DNA of 51,960 nucleotides, taken from an uncultured Bacillota bacterium. GTDB taxonomy: Bacteria; Bacillota_I; Bacilli_A; RF39; UBA660. Within the stretch, counting starts at the first letter, position 1; each line of letters starts with the position of its first letter. The stretch is from the NCBI GenBank assembly GCA_947364595.1, contig CANATJ010000002.1, positions 1 through 51,960 of the forward strand. The letters run 5' to 3'. Shown here in pieces: positions 25,425 through 29,949 of the stretch. The notes under the pieces were generated by a model, which searched no databases, was not told the DNA's origin, and saw nothing but the letters and a program-made list of their open reading frames with translations. The position numbers and the translations under genes are program-made.

Positions 25425-26087
25425 TTATTTTACCTTATCTTTAGATTTATTATCTTTAACTATTACATAAAGTGTAGTTGCTGCAATAGCTACTACTCCT
25501 ACACCAACTGAAATAAATATTAATGAAGCTTCAGCTGCAGTTGCTGGTACCTTTACTACTTGTGGAGTTTCTTTCTTTGGTGCTGGAGTTGGTTTAGGTT
25601 TCTCAGGTGTTTTAGGTTCTTCAGGTGTTGGTTTAGGCTCTTCCACCTCAACTTTGTCTGTACCCTTACCACATTCTACTACTACGAAATGTCCGCCTTC
25701 TTGTTGAATTTGGAAACATGCATCGATATTATTAATTACGTCTTTTAACTCTGGTAAATCATACACTACTGTTACTGTTAAACAAGCACCTGGATCTACA
25801 TATCTTCCATCACCTAAATCATTAGCTAAATCTCCCAAACTACTTTTTAACATATCATCAAATAAATATAATCTTTGATCAGTATTATTAGTAAATTTAT
25901 ACTTATATGTGATTTGACCATATTTCCCTTTTGTTTTATCGTACGTTGAAATAATTTCAACTTTTACTCTTCCATTATAATAAGATGTATTATCAAATGG
26001 TTCTTCCGCCTTTACAGTTCCAAGACCAAATAAACAAACCAATAAAGTAGCTAAACATAATATAAACTTTTTACCTTTTTTCATCAT
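25425..26087 (-). CDS. secreted surface protein: signal peptide, roughly 120-aa beta-rich domain, Pro/Thr/Lys linker and a C-terminal sorting-signal-like anchor
   Basis: The signal peptide is MMKKGKKFILCLATLLVCLFGLGTVKA. The linker is EEPKPTPEEPKTPEKPKPTPAPKK. The anchor is VPATA followed by a hydrophobic helix and KDNKSKDKVK. Confidence 0.6.
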   Translation of the reverse strand: MMKKGKKFILCLATLLVCLFGLGTVKAEEPFDNTSYYNGRVKVEIISTYDKTKGKYGQITYKYKFTNNTDQRLYLFDDMLKSSLGDLANDLGDGRYVDPGACLTVTVVYDLPELKDVINNIDACFQIQQEGGHFVVVECGKGTDKVEVEEPKPTPEEPKTPEKPKPTPAPKKETPQVVKVPATAAEASLIFISVGVGVVAIAATTLYVIVKDNKSKDKVK

Positions 26088-26706: not shown

Positions 26707-26907
26707 CTAATAATTATCTCTGAATTCTCTACGATTTCTTCTTCTTGTATTTTTAATGCCTTCTTTTTTAGCATTTCTTCTTTTAACTCCAGGTTTTAAA
26801 TAACCTTGAGTTCTTTCTTTTAACTTTGCACGGGAGCCATCTTTATCAACTTTTAAATTTCTAAGAGCACCTTCAACATTACCATTTCGAACTATTACCT
26901 TTGTCAT
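26707..26907 (-). CDS. rpsU: 30S ribosomal protein S21
   Basis: The translation is MTKVIVRNGNVEGALRNLK...KPGVKRRNAKKEGIKNTRRR. RBS gggaggg precedes the ATG at 26907. Confidence 0.9.
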   Translation of the reverse strand: MTKVIVRNGNVEGALRNLKVDKDGSRAKLKERTQGYLKPGVKRRNAKKEGIKNTRRRNRREFRDNY

Positions 26908-26980
26908 AAAAATCCCTCCCTTCTCAGCTAAAAACATTATAACACCAAAAGCATTGTTTTTCAACAAAAATTTACAAAAT

Positions 26981-27004
26981 AAAAAAAGCGGGTAAAAACC
27001 CACC
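26981..27004 (-). terminator. rho-independent terminator closing the bacteriocin-like operon
   Basis: The minus-strand RNA has stem GUGGGU-UUUU-ACCCGC followed by U7. Confidence 0.65.
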
Positions 27005-27017
27005 TTTTAAATAATGA

Positions 27018-27179
27018 TTAAAAGTCACATTGACGGTTAGAAGTAATTCTCCTAATAGCTGATCCAAGCATTCTACCAATATCAATTATTACAGATAATC
27101 CTTTAATAAATTCACCAACTAAAGAAGCCGTAATTGAACCTCCAGTTATTTTACATAAATCTTTATCCTCTAGTATCAT
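27018..27179 (-). CDS. double-glycine-leader peptide, 53 aa: MILEDKDLCKITGG|SITASLVGEFIKGLSVIIDIGRMLGSAIRRITSNRQCDF
   Basis: Below the ORF-track cutoff. The leader matches the PCAT consensus (L-7, I-4, GG). The mature part is amphipathic and cationic and contains GRMLG (GxxxG). Its ATG overlaps the upstream stop (ATGA). Confidence 0.7.
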   Translation of the reverse strand: MILEDKDLCKITGGSITASLVGEFIKGLSVIIDIGRMLGSAIRRITSNRQCDF

Positions 27180-27310
27180 TTTTTACACCCAGATGGATTT
27201 ACAAAACCATCAATAATACTTATTAAAAAAGCAATCGCCGAACCAATACCAATAAAAAGCCCATGACCTGACGCTTTAACCATCTTTAATTCATTAGTAG
27301 TTAACTCCAT
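27176..27310 (-). CDS. small hydrophobic peptide, 44 aa: MELTTNELKMVKASGHGLFIGIGSAIAFLISIIDGFVNPSGCKK (second bacteriocin peptide or immunity peptide)
   Basis: Below the ORF-track cutoff. RBS aaggagg lies 4 nt after the transporter stop. The leader-like NELKMVKASG has small residues in place of GG. It contains GxxxG-type motifs (GLFIG, GIGSA). Confidence 0.6.
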   Translation of the reverse strand: MELTTNELKMVKASGHGLFIGIGSAIAFLISIIDGFVNPSGCKK

Positions 27311-27321
27311 CTTACCTCCTT

Positions 27322-29328
27322 CTAGTTATTACGCATTTCATCTAAAACAACCTTTCCGTCTTCTATTTTCAATAACCTATCAAACAAATCTAAATTACCC
27401 ATACGATGTGAAATAACAATAATAGTTTTATCCTTATATTCTTTAAATAAATTCTTAAGTATAACTCTTTCCATATCTTCACTAACTTGGTTAAGTCCTT
27501 CGTCAATAATTAGAACATTAAAATCATAAAGCGCTCTTGCTAAAACAATTCTTTGTTTTTGCCCAGAAGAAAGATTAAAACCATCTTCTTGAATTATTAA
27601 TTTAAAATCATCTGTTATATCATCAAGCTCACAAATATTATCAGAAACAAAGCCTCTAAAAGTCAAATTATCCTCCAAAGTACCACTAAATAAAATTTCT
27701 TTTGAAGATACATAAATAACATTTTCAAATATATAATTTTTTCCCTCCAAATTATCAATCATAACATTTCCAACGTAATTATCATAATATCCCTTTAAAA
27801 TTTTAAATAAAGTACTTTTACCACTACCAGATGGGCCTGTTACCATTATCTTTGTTCCTTTATCGATTTTTAAATTAATATTTTTCAAAACCTTATTTTT
27901 AAAACTATATTCTAAATTTTTAATTAAGATATTTCCAAATACTCGTTTTCTGATCTTATTTTTATTTTTTAAAACTAGTAACTGACTTATATTTCTAATA
28001 GAAGTAATTACATTTTTAAATTCAAAATCAAAATCTAAAACTTCCCTAAATGATGATAATAATAAAGACGAAGTCATAAAATAAGTAATTACATTATTTG
28101 GATTGTTTAAAACAACATAAATCATAATTAAACCTAAACCCAAATAGTAAATAACTTCTTTAATTAAAAATTGATTATTATATAAATAATTAATTTTTTT
28201 ATTAGTAATTAAATATTCATCATACCTACTTTTAAAATCGTTTTCCACCTTACTTTCACAATTTAAATTTTTAACCGTTTCAAATCCACTAATAACTTCA
28301 GTCATATAAGAATTCATTAATGCTCGCTTTAATATAGCCTGATTAACAAAAAACAAATTTTTATTTTTATAAAACAAATAAACAAAAAAATAACCAATAC
28401 AGATAATAAAATTAAAAACGCATATTTTATAGTTAAATATTAATAGAAAGAAAAATAAAATAGTTATAATAGGAATGTTAATAAAAATAATAATAGAAAT
28501 ATGACCAATAGCATCACGGATTAAAGACAAATCATTAAAATAGCTAGTTATCTCACCAGTTGTTTTATCTCGGTAATAACGATAAGGGAGGTTTATAATT
28601 TGTTTAAAAATATCCAAAGATAATTTTCTATCTAATCTTTTATTTAGTTTAGTTAATAAAATATTTCTAACAAAATCAAATAAAATTCTAAGAATAATCA
28701 TTAATAAAAACAAGAATATAATAGGAAGCAAAGAATTTAATGGGCCATTCAAACTATCAAATAATTTTTGAATAAACAAAGAATTAGCAATTGATAAAAT
28801 TCCTGATATCAAAGAAAAAAATCCCACAAAAATAATCAAAAAATAATTATTACGAATTAAATTTAAAATAAATAATAAAATATTAGGTTCTTTTTCCTTC
28901 ATAATTTTTCTAACAGGCTGCATCTCAACAATAATACCTGTTGATATATTTAAAAATTCATCAAAACTCATTTTTTTAAGTCCTAAGGATGGATCGGCAA
29001 CTAAAATTTTTTCTCTTTTATAGTCTATTTTATATAAAACCATGTAGTGTTTGTAGGAGTGATCAATAATAACATGTGCAATACACGGCAATTGCATATC
29101 AGTTAAATTATTAAATCTAATACCACGGCTTTTAAAACCTAGACTATCTAAAACCTGAACAATATTAAATGCCGATATCCCACTTTTAGAAGTATTTAAT
29201 AGTTCATCTAATCTATCAAGGCTTACATATCCATTATAATATTTTAAAATCATTTCTACGCAAGCTGACCCACAATCATTTATTCCTCGCTGTTTTACAA
29301 ACGGATATCTTTTAACATTTTCACCTCC
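27322..29328 (-). CDS. peptidase-C39-containing ABC exporter (PCAT; bacteriocin/pheromone processing-export). The start is ambiguous and may be frameshifted
   Basis: The C39 motif QRGINDCGSAC (Cys codon at 29274-29272) is encoded in frame upstream of the first in-frame ATG (29253). The protein has six TM segments. Walker A is GPSGSGKST, the signature is LSSGQKQR and Walker B is LIIDEG. Confidence 0.8.
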   Translation of the reverse strand, partial: GGENVKRYPFVKQRGINDCGSACVEMILKYYNGYVSLDRLDELLNTSKSGISAFNIVQVLDSLGFKSRGIRFNNLTDMQLPCIAHVIIDHSYKHYMVLYKIDYKREKILVADPSLGLKKMSFDEFLNISTGIIVEMQPVRKIMKEKEPNILLFILNLIRNNYFLIIFVGFFSLISGILSIANSLFIQKLFDSLNGPLNSLLPIIFLFLLMIILRILFDFVRNILLTKLNKRLDRKLSLDIFKQIINLPYRYYRDKTTGEITSYFNDLSLIRDAIGHISIIIFINIPIITILFFFLLIFNYKICVFNFIICIGYFFVYLFYKNKNLFFVNQAILKRALMNSYMTEVISGFETVKNLNCESKVENDFKSRYDEYLITNKKINYLYNNQFLIKEVIYYLGLGLIMIYVVLNNPNNVITYFMTSSLLLSSFREVLDFDFEFKNVITSIRNISQLLVLKNKNKIRKRVFGNILIKNLEYSFKNKVLKNINLKIDKGTKIMVTGPSGSGKSTLFKILKGYYDNYVGNVMIDNLEGKNYIFENVIYVSSKEILFSGTLEDNLTFRGFVSDNICELDDITDDFKLIIQEDGFNLSSGQKQRIVLARALYDFNVLIIDEGLNQVSEDMERVILKNLFKEYKDKTIIVISHRMGNLDLFDRLLKIEDGKVVLDEMRNN

Positions 29329-29392
29329 CTATAGAAAAGATACTGTAAAACTTTTAAATTTCCTTTAAAAAACACAAAAAAAGTATAAAAAT

Positions 29393-29920
29393 TTAATTAT
29401 TATACTTTAAAACATCAATTTTACAATTTCCATATTGCTTGCTTTTTATAATTTCTAAATTAGTAATTATATTTTGAGACTCATACTCACATATAACAAT
29501 ACCACCATCATTTAATAACTTTCTTTCCTCAATAATTTTCAAAGCTTTATTTAATAAACCAGCTCTATATGGTGGATCTAATAAAATAATATCAAATTTA
29601 TCATCAGTACTTTTTAAAAACTTTTTATAATCACAATTTAATACTACAATATCATCATCAAAGTTTTTAATATTCTCTTTAATAGTATTAATAGAAACAG
29701 GATTATTATCAATTAAAAAGCATTTTTTAGCACCATTACTAATAGCCTCTAGACCTAAAGCTCCACTTCCAGCAAATAAATCCAAAACAGTTGAATTTGG
29801 AATATAACCTCTAATCATCGAAAACAAAGATTCCTTAATTCTATCCATAGTTGGTCTAGTTCCATCGATATCAAATCCTTTTAATTTTTTACCACGATAT
29901 TTTCCACTAATTATTCGCAT
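29393..29920 (-). CDS. rsmD: 16S rRNA (guanine966-N2)-methyltransferase RsmD
   Basis: Starts MRIISGKYRGKKL, contains DLFAGSGALGLEA, and has the DPPY motif. Confidence 0.9.
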   Translation of the reverse strand: MRIISGKYRGKKLKGFDIDGTRPTMDRIKESLFSMIRGYIPNSTVLDLFAGSGALGLEAISNGAKKCFLIDNNPVSINTIKENIKNFDDDIVVLNCDYKKFLKSTDDKFDIILLDPPYRAGLLNKALKIIEERKLLNDGGIVICEYESQNIITNLEIIKSKQYGNCKIDVLKYNN

Positions 29921-29949
29921 ATCCTTCACCTATAAATATTTTAACACAT

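What the first reader, a model, noticed from the sequence alone, without database searches (positions are those of the whole stretch)
27018..29331. Two-peptide double-glycine bacteriocin-like module plus PCAT wedged between rsmD and rpsU
Two small ORFs below the ORF-track cutoff follow a C39-peptidase ABC exporter.
- They have strong RBSs and an overlapping stop/start (ATGA), which implies equimolar, coupled synthesis.
- Peptide 2 has a textbook leader (MILEDKDLCKITGG) and a cationic amphipathic 39-aa core.
- Peptide 1 is a 44-aa hydrophobic GxxxG-rich peptide with a degenerate leader (..ELKMVKASG).
- Each carries exactly one Cys, 3-4 residues from its C-terminus (PSGCKK and RQCDF). This hints at an intermolecular disulfide, which would be unusual for class IIb peptides.
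- The operon has its own terminator (26981-27004). I see no accessory (ComB/LcnD-like), immunity, or two-component genes.
- It interrupts an otherwise conserved core neighbourhood.

I do not recognise either core sequence as a known bacteriocin family.
Basis: partly seen in the sequence, partly recalled or inferred. Interest (0 to 1): 0.75.

Follow-up and report, generated by a model that had tools for sequence, protein, structure and literature searches.

The report
Conserved two-peptide export module beside rpsU
Two real small genes for double-glycine-type secreted peptides sit behind a peptide-cleaving ABC exporter, but this is an old, vertically inherited module of an uncultured gut lineage (RF39-type Bacilli) rather than a recent insertion, and here the exporter has lost its normal start codon.

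Summary
The two small ORFs, their ATGA overlap, the GG leader, the terminator and the C39 ABC exporter are all present on the minus strand. Both peptide genes are under purifying selection (dN/dS 0.09-0.14 against a sister lineage), so they are real genes.

1. The module is not wedged into a core neighbourhood. PCAT-pep1-pep2-rpsU-yqeY is syntenic in relatives with PCAT identity down to 37-40%, and it diverges together with rpsU.
2. Both peptides belong to large metagenomic families (979 and at least 1509 clusters). 89 of 100 pep1 relatives match NCBIfam TIGR03949 (lactobin A/cerein 7B, class IIb). The pep2 family is unnamed.
3. One C-terminal Cys is invariant in each family. This fits an interchain disulfide but does not prove one.
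4. In this lineage the PCAT's ancestral GTG start is GTT. The only SD-served ATG is out of frame (MLKDIRL*), and the catalytic Cys codon lies upstream of the first in-frame ATG. Pep1's GG is AS.

More distant relatives also carry an accessory ORF and a pep2-like third ORF (candidate immunity). Both are absent here.

Verdict: a class IIb-like two-peptide secretion module, a new variant of a known kind. Its activity is untested.

The parts
29399..29426 (-). Promoter-like site (TTGTAA-16-TATAAT) inside the 3' end of rsmD. It is a possible own promoter for the module.
   Evidence: 10 of 12 consensus matches. This is a consensus match only. Co-transcription with rsmD is not excluded.
29322..29329 (-). 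Shine-Dalgarno sequence GGGAGGTG of the exporter gene.
   Evidence: Read directly from the sequence. It is identical in relatives L106 and L108, where it serves a GTG or ATG start 7 nt downstream.
29295..29318 (-). Seven-codon ORF MLKDIRL* that starts at the only SD-served ATG. It is out of frame with the exporter.
   Evidence: The same arrangement is present in 14 window-type and 4 sister-lineage loci from several sequencing projects.
29309..29315 (-). UUA_AAA_G, the only place where a -1 slip of tRNA-Lys could join the ATG frame to the exporter frame. The product would begin MLKRYPFVKQ.
   Evidence: Inferred from the sequence. The SD ends 10 nt upstream. No downstream RNA structure was found (z = -0.03). 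A_AA.A tetramers are weak shift sites in E. coli (PMC4066793).
29254..29316 (-). N-terminal 21 codons of the C39 peptidase domain (VKRYPFVKQRGINDCGSACVE), with no start codon in frame. GTT at 29316..29314 replaces the ancestral GTG/ATG start. The catalytic Cys codon is at 29274..29272.
   Evidence: The segment aligns with MKKYPFVKQxGIKDCxxACVQ of intact relatives. Against the sister lineage it shows 2 synonymous and 1 conservative change.
27322..29253 (-). Peptidase-containing ABC transporter (PCAT) ORF as callable from the first in-frame ATG (643 aa). It holds the rest of the C39 domain, six-helix ABC_membrane and ABC_tran.
   Evidence: Pfam on the reconstructed 665-aa protein gives Peptidase_C39 2.4e-30, ABC_membrane 7.8e-29 and ABC_tran 9.7e-18. 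dN/dS is 0.137 overall and 0.13 for the C39 part.
27176..27310 (-). pep1, a 44-aa precursor MELTTNELKMVKAS|GHGLFIGIGSAIAFLISIIDGFVNPSGCKK. The core is hydrophobic with one Cys.
   Evidence: invariant L8 F28 D34 G35 P39 C42. dN/dS is 0.136. AF2 gives a core helix at 16-37 and a non-helical Cys tail.
27018..27179 (-). pep2, a 53-aa precursor MILEDKDLCKITGG|SITASLVGEFIKGLSVIIDIGRMLGSAIRRITSNRQCDF. The core is amphipathic with net charge +2, an invariant GxxxG and one Cys.
   Evidence: invariant G13 G14 G35 G39 R44 C51. dN/dS is 0.088. AF2 gives a helix to residue 47 and a non-helical Cys tail.
26983..27008 (-). Intrinsic terminator hairpin plus T-run that closes the module before the rpsU promoter.
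   Evidence: The hairpin is kept in the sister lineage through changes on both arms, and analogous hairpins occur in relatives.
26707..26964 (-). rpsU with its own promoter (TTGAAA-17-TGnTATAAT). This is the conserved downstream neighbour of the module.
   Evidence: rpsU-yqeY follows pep2 in all 12 other lineages that have downstream sequence.
29393..29929 (-). rsmD-type methyltransferase (Cons_hypoth95), the upstream neighbour.
   Evidence: rsmD is the upstream neighbour in most, but not all, relatives.

Best explanation
This is a vertically inherited, stripped-down class IIb-like two-peptide secretion module of an RF39-type (uncultured gut Bacilli) chromosome.

Proposed mechanism:
1. The exporter gene, pep1 and pep2 form one transcription unit. 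It ends at the hairpin before rpsU.
2. pep1 has a strong SD, and pep2 is translationally coupled to it through the ATGA overlap.
3. Both precursors carry double-glycine-type leaders. These are recognised by the N-terminal C39 domain of the ABC exporter, which cleaves after GG (pep2) and after the variant AS (pep1) while exporting them.
4. The products are a 30-aa hydrophobic helix and a 39-aa amphipathic, weakly cationic helix. Each ends in a flexible tail with one invariant Cys.
5. I infer that the two helices pair in a membrane through their GxxxG-type faces, in parallel, and that the two tail cysteines can lock the pair as a disulfide-linked heterodimer.
6. The most likely activity is membrane permeabilisation of competing close relatives, that is, a bacteriocin.

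In this lineage the exporter's start codon has decayed from GTG to GTT. A catalytically complete exporter can then only arise from a rare non-standard event, most plausibly a -1 slip at UUA_AAA_G three codons after the out-of-frame ATG. The exporter should therefore be made at a low level.

Shown here: the gene reality, homology, synteny, conservation and domain content. Inferred: cleavage, export, pairing, the disulfide, the killing activity and the frameshift.
For: Genes are real and constrained:
- dN/dS against a sister lineage with about 94% flank identity is 0.137 (PCAT), 0.136 (pep1) and 0.088 (pep2).
- The C39 part of the exporter is as constrained as the membrane and ATPase parts (0.13 against 0.16 and 0.115).

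Domains and leaders:
- The exporter has C39 + ABC_membrane + ABC_tran. The catalytic His91 and Asp109 and the near-invariant Gln10 and Cys16 are kept.
- GG leaders occur in 95% of pep2 relatives and 89% of pep1 relatives. AG occurs in about 9% of pep1 relatives, so Ala at -2 is tolerated.
- 89 of 100 pep1 relatives hit TIGR03949, the class IIb lactobin A/cerein 7B family. NCBI and JGI name some of them so.

Core features:
- A GxxxG is invariant in pep2 (G35, G39), and pep1 keeps an invariant D34-G35.
- All 164 pep2 and 120 pep1 cluster representatives have a core Cys 0-4 residues from the C-terminus (one pep1 outlier, with a C-terminal extension, has 14), and 92-95% have exactly one.
- AF2 predicts confident core helices with non-helical Cys tails at the same end of both peptides.

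Inheritance:
- The same gene order occurs in lineages with PCAT identity of 89%, 51%, 47-50% and 37-41%.
- PCAT and RpsU identities correlate (Spearman 0.62).
- All 10 contigs shown that encode an identical RpsU carry the module.
- No pep2 relative occurs on known plasmids or phages.

Operon boundaries: terminator and promoters.
Against: - No immunity gene is present. The class IIb review states that one is always in the peptide operon (PMC2850506).
- The accessory ORF and the pep2-like third ORF of more distant relatives are missing here.
- Order-wide fixation at one chromosomal site under purifying selection is unusual for bacteriocin loci, which in my experience tend to be accessory. This fits a non-weapon role equally well.
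- The exporter's catalytic Cys is not in frame with any canonical start.
- The candidate slip motif A_AA.A is weak in E. coli and has no downstream structure. The peptidase may therefore simply be absent.
- pep1's AS site is not a documented double-glycine variant.
- The organism is presumably a gut anaerobe (its relatives come from gut samples), so extracellular disulfide formation may be disfavoured.
- The window's own peptides hit no curated family.
Confidence: 0.55

Rival explanations
1. The peptide pair is exported but is not a weapon. It serves a lineage-wide physiological role in these small-genome gut bacteria, such as a cell-cell signal, a cell-envelope or membrane factor, or a host-directed peptide. 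That role would explain why the module is fixed next to rpsU and needs no immunity gene.
For: - Synteny and co-divergence hold across a deep clade.
- The module is fixed in all sampled contigs of the species.
- Purifying selection acts on all three genes.
- The window has no immunity gene and no regulators.
- Relatives' contigs of 1.37-1.54 Mb suggest genomes of about that size, where dispensable genes tend to be lost.
Against: - No sensor kinase or receptor gene is nearby.
- The cores (a transmembrane-like helix plus an amphipathic helix with GxxxG) look like pore-forming class IIb peptides, not typical pheromones.
- pep1 relatives match a bacteriocin model.
- More distant relatives keep a candidate immunity ORF.
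- The peptide genes are the most divergent 300 nt in 14 kb between sister lineages, as expected for a weapon or a specificity locus.
Confidence: 0.25
2. In this lineage the module is a decaying or functionally altered remnant. The exporter is translated only from Met23 (29253) and lacks the catalytic Cys, so leaders are not removed. The peptides are then not exported, exported uncleaved, or inactive.
For: - The ancestral start GTG is now GTT, and the SD-served ATG is out of frame.
- The pep1 GG is now AS.
- The accessory and third ORFs are lost.
- Gene callers and NCBI record only the 643-aa product.
- There is no frameshift-stimulating structure, and the tetramer is weak.
Against: - All three ORFs are intact in every contig of two lineages that differ at about 28% of PCAT synonymous sites.
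- dN/dS is about 0.1, and the C39 remainder (0.13) is as constrained as the transporter core.
- The pep2 leader keeps every invariant leader position.
- The out-of-frame N-terminal segment has no stop codon and shows only 2 synonymous and 1 conservative change.
Confidence: 0.12
3. This is a one-peptide system. pep2 is the only secreted product, and pep1 stays in the producer membrane with its leader uncleaved because of AS, acting as an immunity or docking partner.
For: - pep1 is essentially a single transmembrane helix (GRAVY 0.96).
- Its cleavage motif is degenerate here.
- No separate immunity gene exists in the window.
Against: - 89% of pep1 relatives have canonical GG leaders, and 89 of 100 match a class IIb bacteriocin model.
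- The pep1 leader positions L3, L8 and V11 are kept here.
- Relatives have a different, leaderless candidate immunity ORF.
Confidence: 0.08

Closest known systems
Class IIb (two-peptide) bacteriocins such as lactococcin G and plantaricins EF/JK (review PMC2850506)
   Same: - Two different small peptides are encoded by adjacent genes in one operon.
- The leaders are of the double-glycine type and 14 residues long.
- A dedicated C39 ABC transporter sits in the same operon, as for lactococcin G.
- The cores are helical with GxxxG motifs, one more hydrophobic and one amphipathic and cationic.
   Different: - No immunity gene and no accessory gene are present in this clade.
- The module is fixed and syntenic next to rpsU across a deep lineage instead of being strain-variable.
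- One invariant C-terminal Cys occurs in each core. The class IIb review describes no interpeptide disulfide.
- The pep1 cleavage site is AS.
- The activity is untested.
NCBIfam TIGR03949, class IIb bacteriocin, lactobin A/cerein 7B family
   Same: 89 of 100 pep1 relatives hit this model (best E 5.1e-8). NCBI and JGI name several relatives this way, including the L023 orthologue P0255.
   Different: - The window's pep1 itself gives no hit at E<=1.
- The match in relatives covers the leader plus the Gly-rich start of the core.
- The conserved IDG(Y/F)xxPxxC tail is specific to this family.
- pep2 has no curated family.
Peptidase-containing ABC transporters (PCATs: ComA, LagD, PCAT1; Pfam PF03412+PF00664+PF00005; NCBIfam TIGR01193)
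   Same: The domain order is the same and the catalytic Gln/Cys/His/Asp positions are kept. Walker A, the LSSGQ signature and the H-loop are present.
   Different: - It scores 286.9 bits against the TIGR01193 cut-off of 523.85, so it is a divergent branch.
Mycoplasmopsis Mbov_0121-family PCAT (NF045998) with MAG1140-family small protein (NF045999)
   Same: The window PCAT hits NF045998 at 5.6e-62. The ~150-aa accessory ORF of more distant relatives gives weak NF045999 hits (E 0.02-0.14). This hints at a related cassette in Mollicutes.
   Different: Both hits are far below the curated cut-offs. I could not inspect Mycoplasmopsis loci, so this is only a lead.
SD-stimulated -1 ribosomal frameshifting (dnaX, IS911/IS3 type)
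   Same: There is a lysine-codon slip site (A_AAA) with a Shine-Dalgarno sequence ending 10 nt upstream. From my own knowledge, that is the spacing reported for dnaX.
   Different: - The site is a tetramer, not a heptamer.
- It has no downstream hairpin.
- It lies only three codons into the ORF.
- Nothing shows that the shift happens.

Membership tests
Class IIb two-peptide bacteriocin (criteria from PMC2850506) | Two different peptides are encoded by adjacent genes in the same operon. | tested here: met
   pep1 (27310..27176) and pep2 (27179..27018) overlap by ATGA. One terminator follows them. Their cores are unrelated; only the leaders align.
Class IIb two-peptide bacteriocin (criteria from PMC2850506) | [quoted passage not shown] | tested here: inconclusive
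   The pep2 leader is canonical in motif (..LCKITGG) but is 14 residues long, one short of the stated range. pep1 has the conserved leader hydrophobics, also over 14 residues, but AS instead of GG at -2/-1. AG occurs in about 9% of relatives, and AS occurs only in this lineage and its sister.
Class IIb two-peptide bacteriocin (criteria from PMC2850506) | An immunity gene lies in the same operon as the two peptide genes. | tested here: not met
   Only 110 nt of terminator and promoter separate pep2 from rpsU. No pep2-like or pep1-like extra ORF occurs anywhere in the window. A candidate ORF exists only in more distant relatives.
Class IIb two-peptide bacteriocin (criteria from PMC2850506) | GxxxG or GxxxG-like motifs occur in the mature peptides. 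| tested here: met
   pep2 has GRMLG, with both Gly invariant in 100 relatives. pep1 has GLFIG, GIGSA and SIIDG.
Class IIb two-peptide bacteriocin (criteria from PMC2850506) | [quoted passage not shown] | not testable with these tools
   This needs synthetic or expressed peptides and indicator strains.
NCBIfam TIGR03949 (lactobin A/cerein 7B family), tested for pep1 | The score against the model reaches the curated cut-off of 21.5 bits. | tested here: not met
   The window pep1 gives no hit at E<=1. Its relatives do hit (89 of 100 at E<=0.01). The window peptide joins them at 85 bits (E 1.2e-18) in the family profile search, though it was itself one of the nine sequences in that profile. It is therefore homologous but falls outside the curated model.
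Peptidase-containing ABC transporter (PCAT) | An N-terminal C39 domain is followed by an ABC transmembrane domain and an ATPase in one polypeptide. | tested here: met
   Pfam gives PF03412 2.4e-30, PF00664 7.8e-29 and PF00005 9.7e-18 on the reconstructed protein. The 643-aa ORF alone also carries the precomputed C39, ABC_membrane and ABC_tran hits.
Peptidase-containing ABC transporter (PCAT) | The catalytic Cys of the C39 domain is present in the translated product. | tested here: inconclusive
   The Cys codon (29274..29272) is intact and in the exporter frame. It lies upstream of the first in-frame ATG/GTG/TTG, and the SD-served ATG is in another frame. Translation was not tested.
NCBIfam TIGR01193 (bacteriocin_ABC subfamily) | The score reaches the curated cut-off of 523.85 bits. 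| tested here: not met
   The score is 286.9 bits, E 3.6e-85. TIGR01193 is the best-matching family, but the hit is below cut-off.
Programmed -1 ribosomal frameshift site | A slippery motif allows cognate re-pairing in the -1 frame. | tested here: met
   In UUA_AAA_G, tRNA-Lys can move from AAA to AAA one base back. This is an A_AA.A tetramer in the sense of PMC4066793.
Programmed -1 ribosomal frameshift site | A stimulatory element is present, and there is evidence that the shifted product is made. | tested here: inconclusive
   The initiation SD ends 10 nt upstream. No downstream structure was found. The arrangement is conserved in two lineages, and the -1 frame N-terminal segment shows 2 synonymous and 1 conservative change, which is too few to decide. 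There are no expression data.

The most novel reading that the evidence does not exclude
The pair is a covalent, disulfide-linked heterodimeric peptide. To my knowledge, interchain disulfides are not described for unmodified two-peptide bacteriocins. On this reading the whole RF39-type lineage has kept it at one chromosomal site for a core ecological or physiological role. In this particular lineage the exporter would be expressed only through a -1 ribosomal frameshift three codons after initiation, with the initiation SD itself acting as the stimulator.
Probability: 0.12. Interest if true: 0.8.

Novelty: new variant of a known kind. Interest (0 to 1): 0.5.

Why it matters
RF39-type Bacilli are common, uncultured gut bacteria, apparently with small genomes, and very little is known about how they interact with neighbours or hosts. 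This module is a secreted two-peptide system that the whole lineage keeps at one fixed locus, so it is a concrete, synthesizable handle on that biology.

- The two cores are 30 and 39 residues and can be made chemically. They can be tested with and without oxidation.
- The invariant single Cys in each peptide makes a clear prediction: a heterodimer mass, and loss of function in Cys-to-Ser variants.
- The contrast between full cassettes and the stripped version in this clade is a natural experiment on whether such peptides can persist without immunity. Full cassettes carry PCAT, an accessory ORF, pep1, pep2 and a pep2-like third ORF.
- The decayed start codon of a still-constrained exporter is a small, testable case of possible translational recoding or of a catalytically silent peptidase domain.

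Tried and rejected
- **Sequencing or assembly error at the exporter start.** Rejected. The junction is identical in 14 window-type and 4 sister-lineage contigs from several projects.
- **Indel frameshift.** Rejected. The region has the same length as in intact relatives, and the change is a GTG-to-GTT substitution.
- **Alternative genetic code (TGA = Trp).** Rejected. Long ORFs read through with table 11, and TGA ends 4 of 33 long ORFs.
- **Recent horizontal insertion.** Rejected on synteny, co-divergence, absence from plasmids and phages, and no sharp composition break. The PCAT is somewhat AT-richer, as membrane proteins are in a genome with 27% GC.
- **RNA element.** Rfam gave only a sub-threshold L20-leader hit on the terminator. 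No significant fold was found after the slip site.
- **Solved structures.** There were no PDB relatives for either peptide profile.
- **pep1 and pep2 as paralogues.** Only the 14-residue leaders align.
- **Literature.** No paper holds the family motifs, and nothing was found on RF39 plus PCAT or bacteriocin. The Mbov_0121 papers were not informative.
- **Collection scans.** A systematic presence/absence census across RF39 genomes was therefore not possible.
- **Neutral-rate test on the 63-nt out-of-frame segment.** Abandoned as undecidable. The neighbouring AT-rich intergenic DNA is just as conserved.


Full report
**What is in the window**

All features are on the minus strand.
- A 643-aa ORF (29253..27322) is followed 11 nt after its TAG by a 44-aa ORF, pep1 (27310..27176), which sits behind AAGGAGGT.
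- A 53-aa ORF, pep2 (27179..27018), has a start that overlaps the pep1 stop as ATGA.
- A hairpin plus T-run at 27008..26983 ends the unit. A near-consensus promoter (TTGAAA-17-TGnTATAAT) then serves rpsU.
- A promoter-like site lies in the 3' end of rsmD at 29426..29399.
- pep2 is the only ORF in the 52-kb window with a strict double-glycine leader pattern.
- The rest of the window is housekeeping: MutL, RNase J, Ffh, MiaB, ArgRS, Tex, DinB, LtaS, BrkB and a GGDEF protein. The ORFs I scanned include no second PCAT, two-component system or HlyD/ComB-type gene.
- GC content is 27.3%, and the genetic code is the standard bacterial one.

**The exporter**

With its upstream in-frame codons added, the protein has Peptidase_C39 (2.4e-30), ABC_membrane (7.8e-29) and ABC_tran (9.7e-18). 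Its best NCBIfam match is TIGR01193, the peptide cleavage/export ABC transporter family. The score is 286.9 bits against a cut-off of 523.85, so it is a divergent PCAT.

- The segment that encodes RYPFVKQRGINDCGSACVE, including the catalytic Cys (codon 29274..29272), lies upstream of the first in-frame ATG (29253).
- No ATG, GTG or TTG occurs in that frame after the TAG at 29331..29329.
- The ATG that the SD GGGAGGTG serves (29318) is in another frame and reads MLKDIRL*.
- This is not an assembly error. The junction is identical in 14 contigs of the window type and 4 of a sister lineage, from several independent projects.
- It is not an indel either. Relatives with intact 669-672-aa proteins start MKKYPFVKQ. 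L106 reads GGAGGTGAAAAT-GTG-AAA-AAG-TAT-CCG where the window reads GGAGGTGAAAAT-GTT-AAA-AGA-TAT-CCG.
- One G-to-T change therefore destroyed the GTG start. It also destroyed the TGA that closed an overlapping ATG-TGA.

**Is the exporter still used?**

I compared the window with the sister lineage (L019 type). Flank identity is about 94-96%.
- dN/dS for the PCAT is 0.137.
- The remaining C39 part (0.13) is as constrained as the membrane domain (0.16) and the ATPase (0.115).
- The out-of-frame N-terminal segment has no stop codon and differs by two synonymous changes and one conservative change.
- That is too few changes to be decisive, because the neighbouring intergenic DNA is just as conserved.

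A full-length enzyme could arise by a -1 slip of tRNA-Lys at UUA_AAA_G (29315..29309), which would give MLKRYPFVKQ. The SD ends 10 nt upstream. However, there is no downstream structure (z = -0.03). A_AA.A tetramers are weak shift sites in E. coli: about 0.15% without a stimulator, and the lowest of the six active tetramers with one (PMC4066793). I therefore leave three options open: low-level recoding, a Cys-less exporter that starts at Met23, or decay.

**The peptides are real genes**

- dN/dS is 0.136 for pep1 and 0.088 for pep2, with 22 and 31 substitutions respectively.
- The two peptide genes are nevertheless the most divergent 300 nt in a 14-kb comparison. They are 81-82% identical, against about 94% on average and 97-99% for the adjacent terminator and rpsU.
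- Their dS values are 0.68 and 1.06, against 0.05-0.35 in the flanks.
- This pattern is consistent with old alleles or imported alleles at a specificity locus, but it was not followed up.

**Not an insertion**

The order brkB-ltaS-...-ylbD-ylbE-rsmD-PCAT-pep1-pep2-rpsU-yqeY recurs in several sets of relatives.
- It recurs in the sister lineage, where the PCAT is 89% identical.
- It recurs in three further lineages with PCATs 47-51% identical.
- One protein of the 46%-identity cluster group (P0062) is named Candidatus Coprosoma intestinipullorum. That genus is GTDB CAG-822, order RF39.
- In uncultured Bacilli, Bacillales and 'Mollicutes' MAGs with PCATs 37-41% identical (L026-L031) and in two further lineages (L120, L121), the cassette still sits directly upstream of rpsU-yqeY. 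In L121 an inserted RtcB gene separates them.
- Among the five such MAG loci compared (L026, L028-L031), YqeY is 56-66% identical to the window's protein.
- PCAT identity tracks RpsU identity over 45 lineage pairs (Spearman 0.62).
- All ten contigs shown that encode an identical RpsU carry the module.
- tblastn finds no pep2 relative on PLSDB plasmids or INPHARED phages.
- There is no sharp composition break.

The module is a conserved part of this neighbourhood. It does not interrupt it.

**Peptide families**

- A profile of nine pep2 sequences finds at least 1509 clusters at 90% identity. None is named and none has a Pfam domain.
- A single-sequence search of the 50%-identity library finds 46 matches, all but one (a spurious 5513-aa protein) 51-75 aa long.
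- A pep1 profile finds 979 clusters. NCBI or JGI name a few of them 'class IIb bacteriocin, lactobin A/cerein 7B family'.
- 89 of 100 pep1 relatives hit TIGR03949, with a best E of 5.1e-8. The window's pep1 gives no hit.
- pep2 relatives hit nothing beyond occasional leader matches.
- The two cores are unrelated to each other and to anything in the PDB.
- No paper in the library contains the family motifs.

**Conserved anatomy**

- In 100-sequence alignments, pep2 has invariant G13, G14 (the GG), G35 and G39 (a GxxxG), R44 and C51.
- pep1 has invariant L8, F28, D34, G35, P39 and C42.
- Every one of 164 pep2 and 120 pep1 cluster representatives has a core Cys 0-4 residues from the C-terminus, apart from one pep1 representative with a C-terminal extension (14 residues). 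92-95% have exactly one.
- AF2 predicts a confident helix in each core (block-mean pLDDT 87-96 over the best-predicted core residues) followed by a non-helical tail that carries the Cys.
- The pep1 core is hydrophobic (GRAVY 0.96, net +1). The pep2 core is amphipathic (muH up to 0.87, net +2).
- A lone, invariant Cys at the same end of two helices that are made together fits an interchain disulfide. It is equally compatible with a free thiol or an unknown modification.
- The class IIb review describes no interpeptide disulfide.

**Lineage-specific reduction**

- By family register, the window's pep1 is cleaved after A13-S14 (..MVKAS|GHGLF), where relatives have GG or, in about 9%, AG.
- Relatives L026-L031 and L120/L121 carry an extra ORF of about 150 aa with a transmembrane segment after the PCAT. 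It has no Pfam family and gives only weak NF045999 MAG1140 hits.
- L026-L031 and L122 also carry a third ORF of 45-58 aa that overlaps the pep2 stop. It has a Lys-rich N-terminus and a transmembrane helix.
- The C-terminal 25 residues of that third ORF align with the C-terminal 25 residues of pep2, including the GxxxG, the Arg and the Cys (hhalign probability 87%, E 3.9e-6). It is a plausible immunity protein or decoy.
- Neither extra ORF exists in the window's clade or elsewhere in the window.

**Interpretation**

The module works like a class IIb two-peptide bacteriocin system with its exporter in the same operon. I do not file it as a member of that class, for three reasons.
- A defining feature, the immunity gene in the operon (PMC2850506), was tested and is not met.
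- The leader criterion is only half met.
- The activity is untested.

Deep vertical conservation, fixation within the species and the lack of immunity leave real room for a non-killing role. The decayed start codon and the AS site leave some room for loss or change of function in this lineage, although purifying selection argues against simple decay.

Overall this is a new variant of a known kind. It is of moderate interest, mainly because it is order-wide, easy to test chemically, and carries an unusual invariant-Cys signature.

Noticed in passing
window 29254-29331 (minus strand): The exporter's ancestral GTG start is GTT. The SD-served ATG (29318) is out of frame and gives a 7-codon ORF, and the catalytic Cys codon lies upstream of the first in-frame ATG. 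The same arrangement is fixed in two lineages. A third lineage (L023) also has GTT, but with an in-frame ATA just before it.
   Followed up: partly
window 27005-27305, compared with L019: The two peptide genes are the most divergent 300 nt in a 14-kb comparison of sister lineages (81-82% identity against about 94%). They are sharply bounded by 97-99% identity at the terminator and rpsU. Synonymous divergence is about 3-fold higher than in the flanks, yet dN/dS is about 0.1.
   Followed up: partly
L026 6847-7032, L027 6740-6910, L028 6817-6990, L029 3440-3604, L030 6706-6870, L031 6791-6961, L122 3650-3808: More distant relatives have a third small ORF of 45-58 aa that overlaps the pep2 stop. 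It has a Lys-rich N-terminus, a transmembrane helix and a C-terminal 25 aa resembling the pep2 C-terminus, including the Cys. It is a candidate immunity or decoy protein and is absent from the window's clade.
   Followed up: partly
L026 6087-6545, L028 6082-6525, L031 6063-6497, L120 2189-2647, L121 2888-3346: An ORF of about 145-152 aa with a transmembrane segment lies between the PCAT and pep1 in more distant relatives. It has no Pfam family and gives only weak hits to the NCBIfam MAG1140 family. The PCAT itself hits the Mycoplasmopsis Mbov_0121 PCAT family weakly. Together these hint at a related cassette in Mollicutes.
   Followed up: no
L120 2790-3473; L121 3846-5039; L122 2870-3484: Some lineages have insertions within the cassette. 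L120 has a 227-aa methyltransferase between pep1 and pep2. L121 has RtcB on the opposite strand between pep2 and rpsU. L122 has a 204-aa unannotated (no Pfam hit) ORF directly upstream of pep2 and no PCAT within 3.5 kb.
   Followed up: no
L106 4995-5010: In an intact relative, the GTG start of the PCAT overlaps a minimal ATG-TGA start-stop ORF (AAAATGTGAAAAAG). This might already damp exporter translation in the ancestor.
   Followed up: no
window 25425-26087 (minus strand): This 220-aa protein has a signal peptide, a Pro/Lys-rich linker and a C-terminal transmembrane anchor. It has no Pfam hit. It is syntenic in close relatives but relatively divergent between sister lineages (85-90% nucleotide identity).
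   Followed up: no
window 26974-27060 (minus strand): A sub-threshold Rfam L20_leader hit (22.2 bits against a gathering score of 58.7, E 0.33) overlaps the module terminator. I take it to be a chance match.
   Followed up: yes
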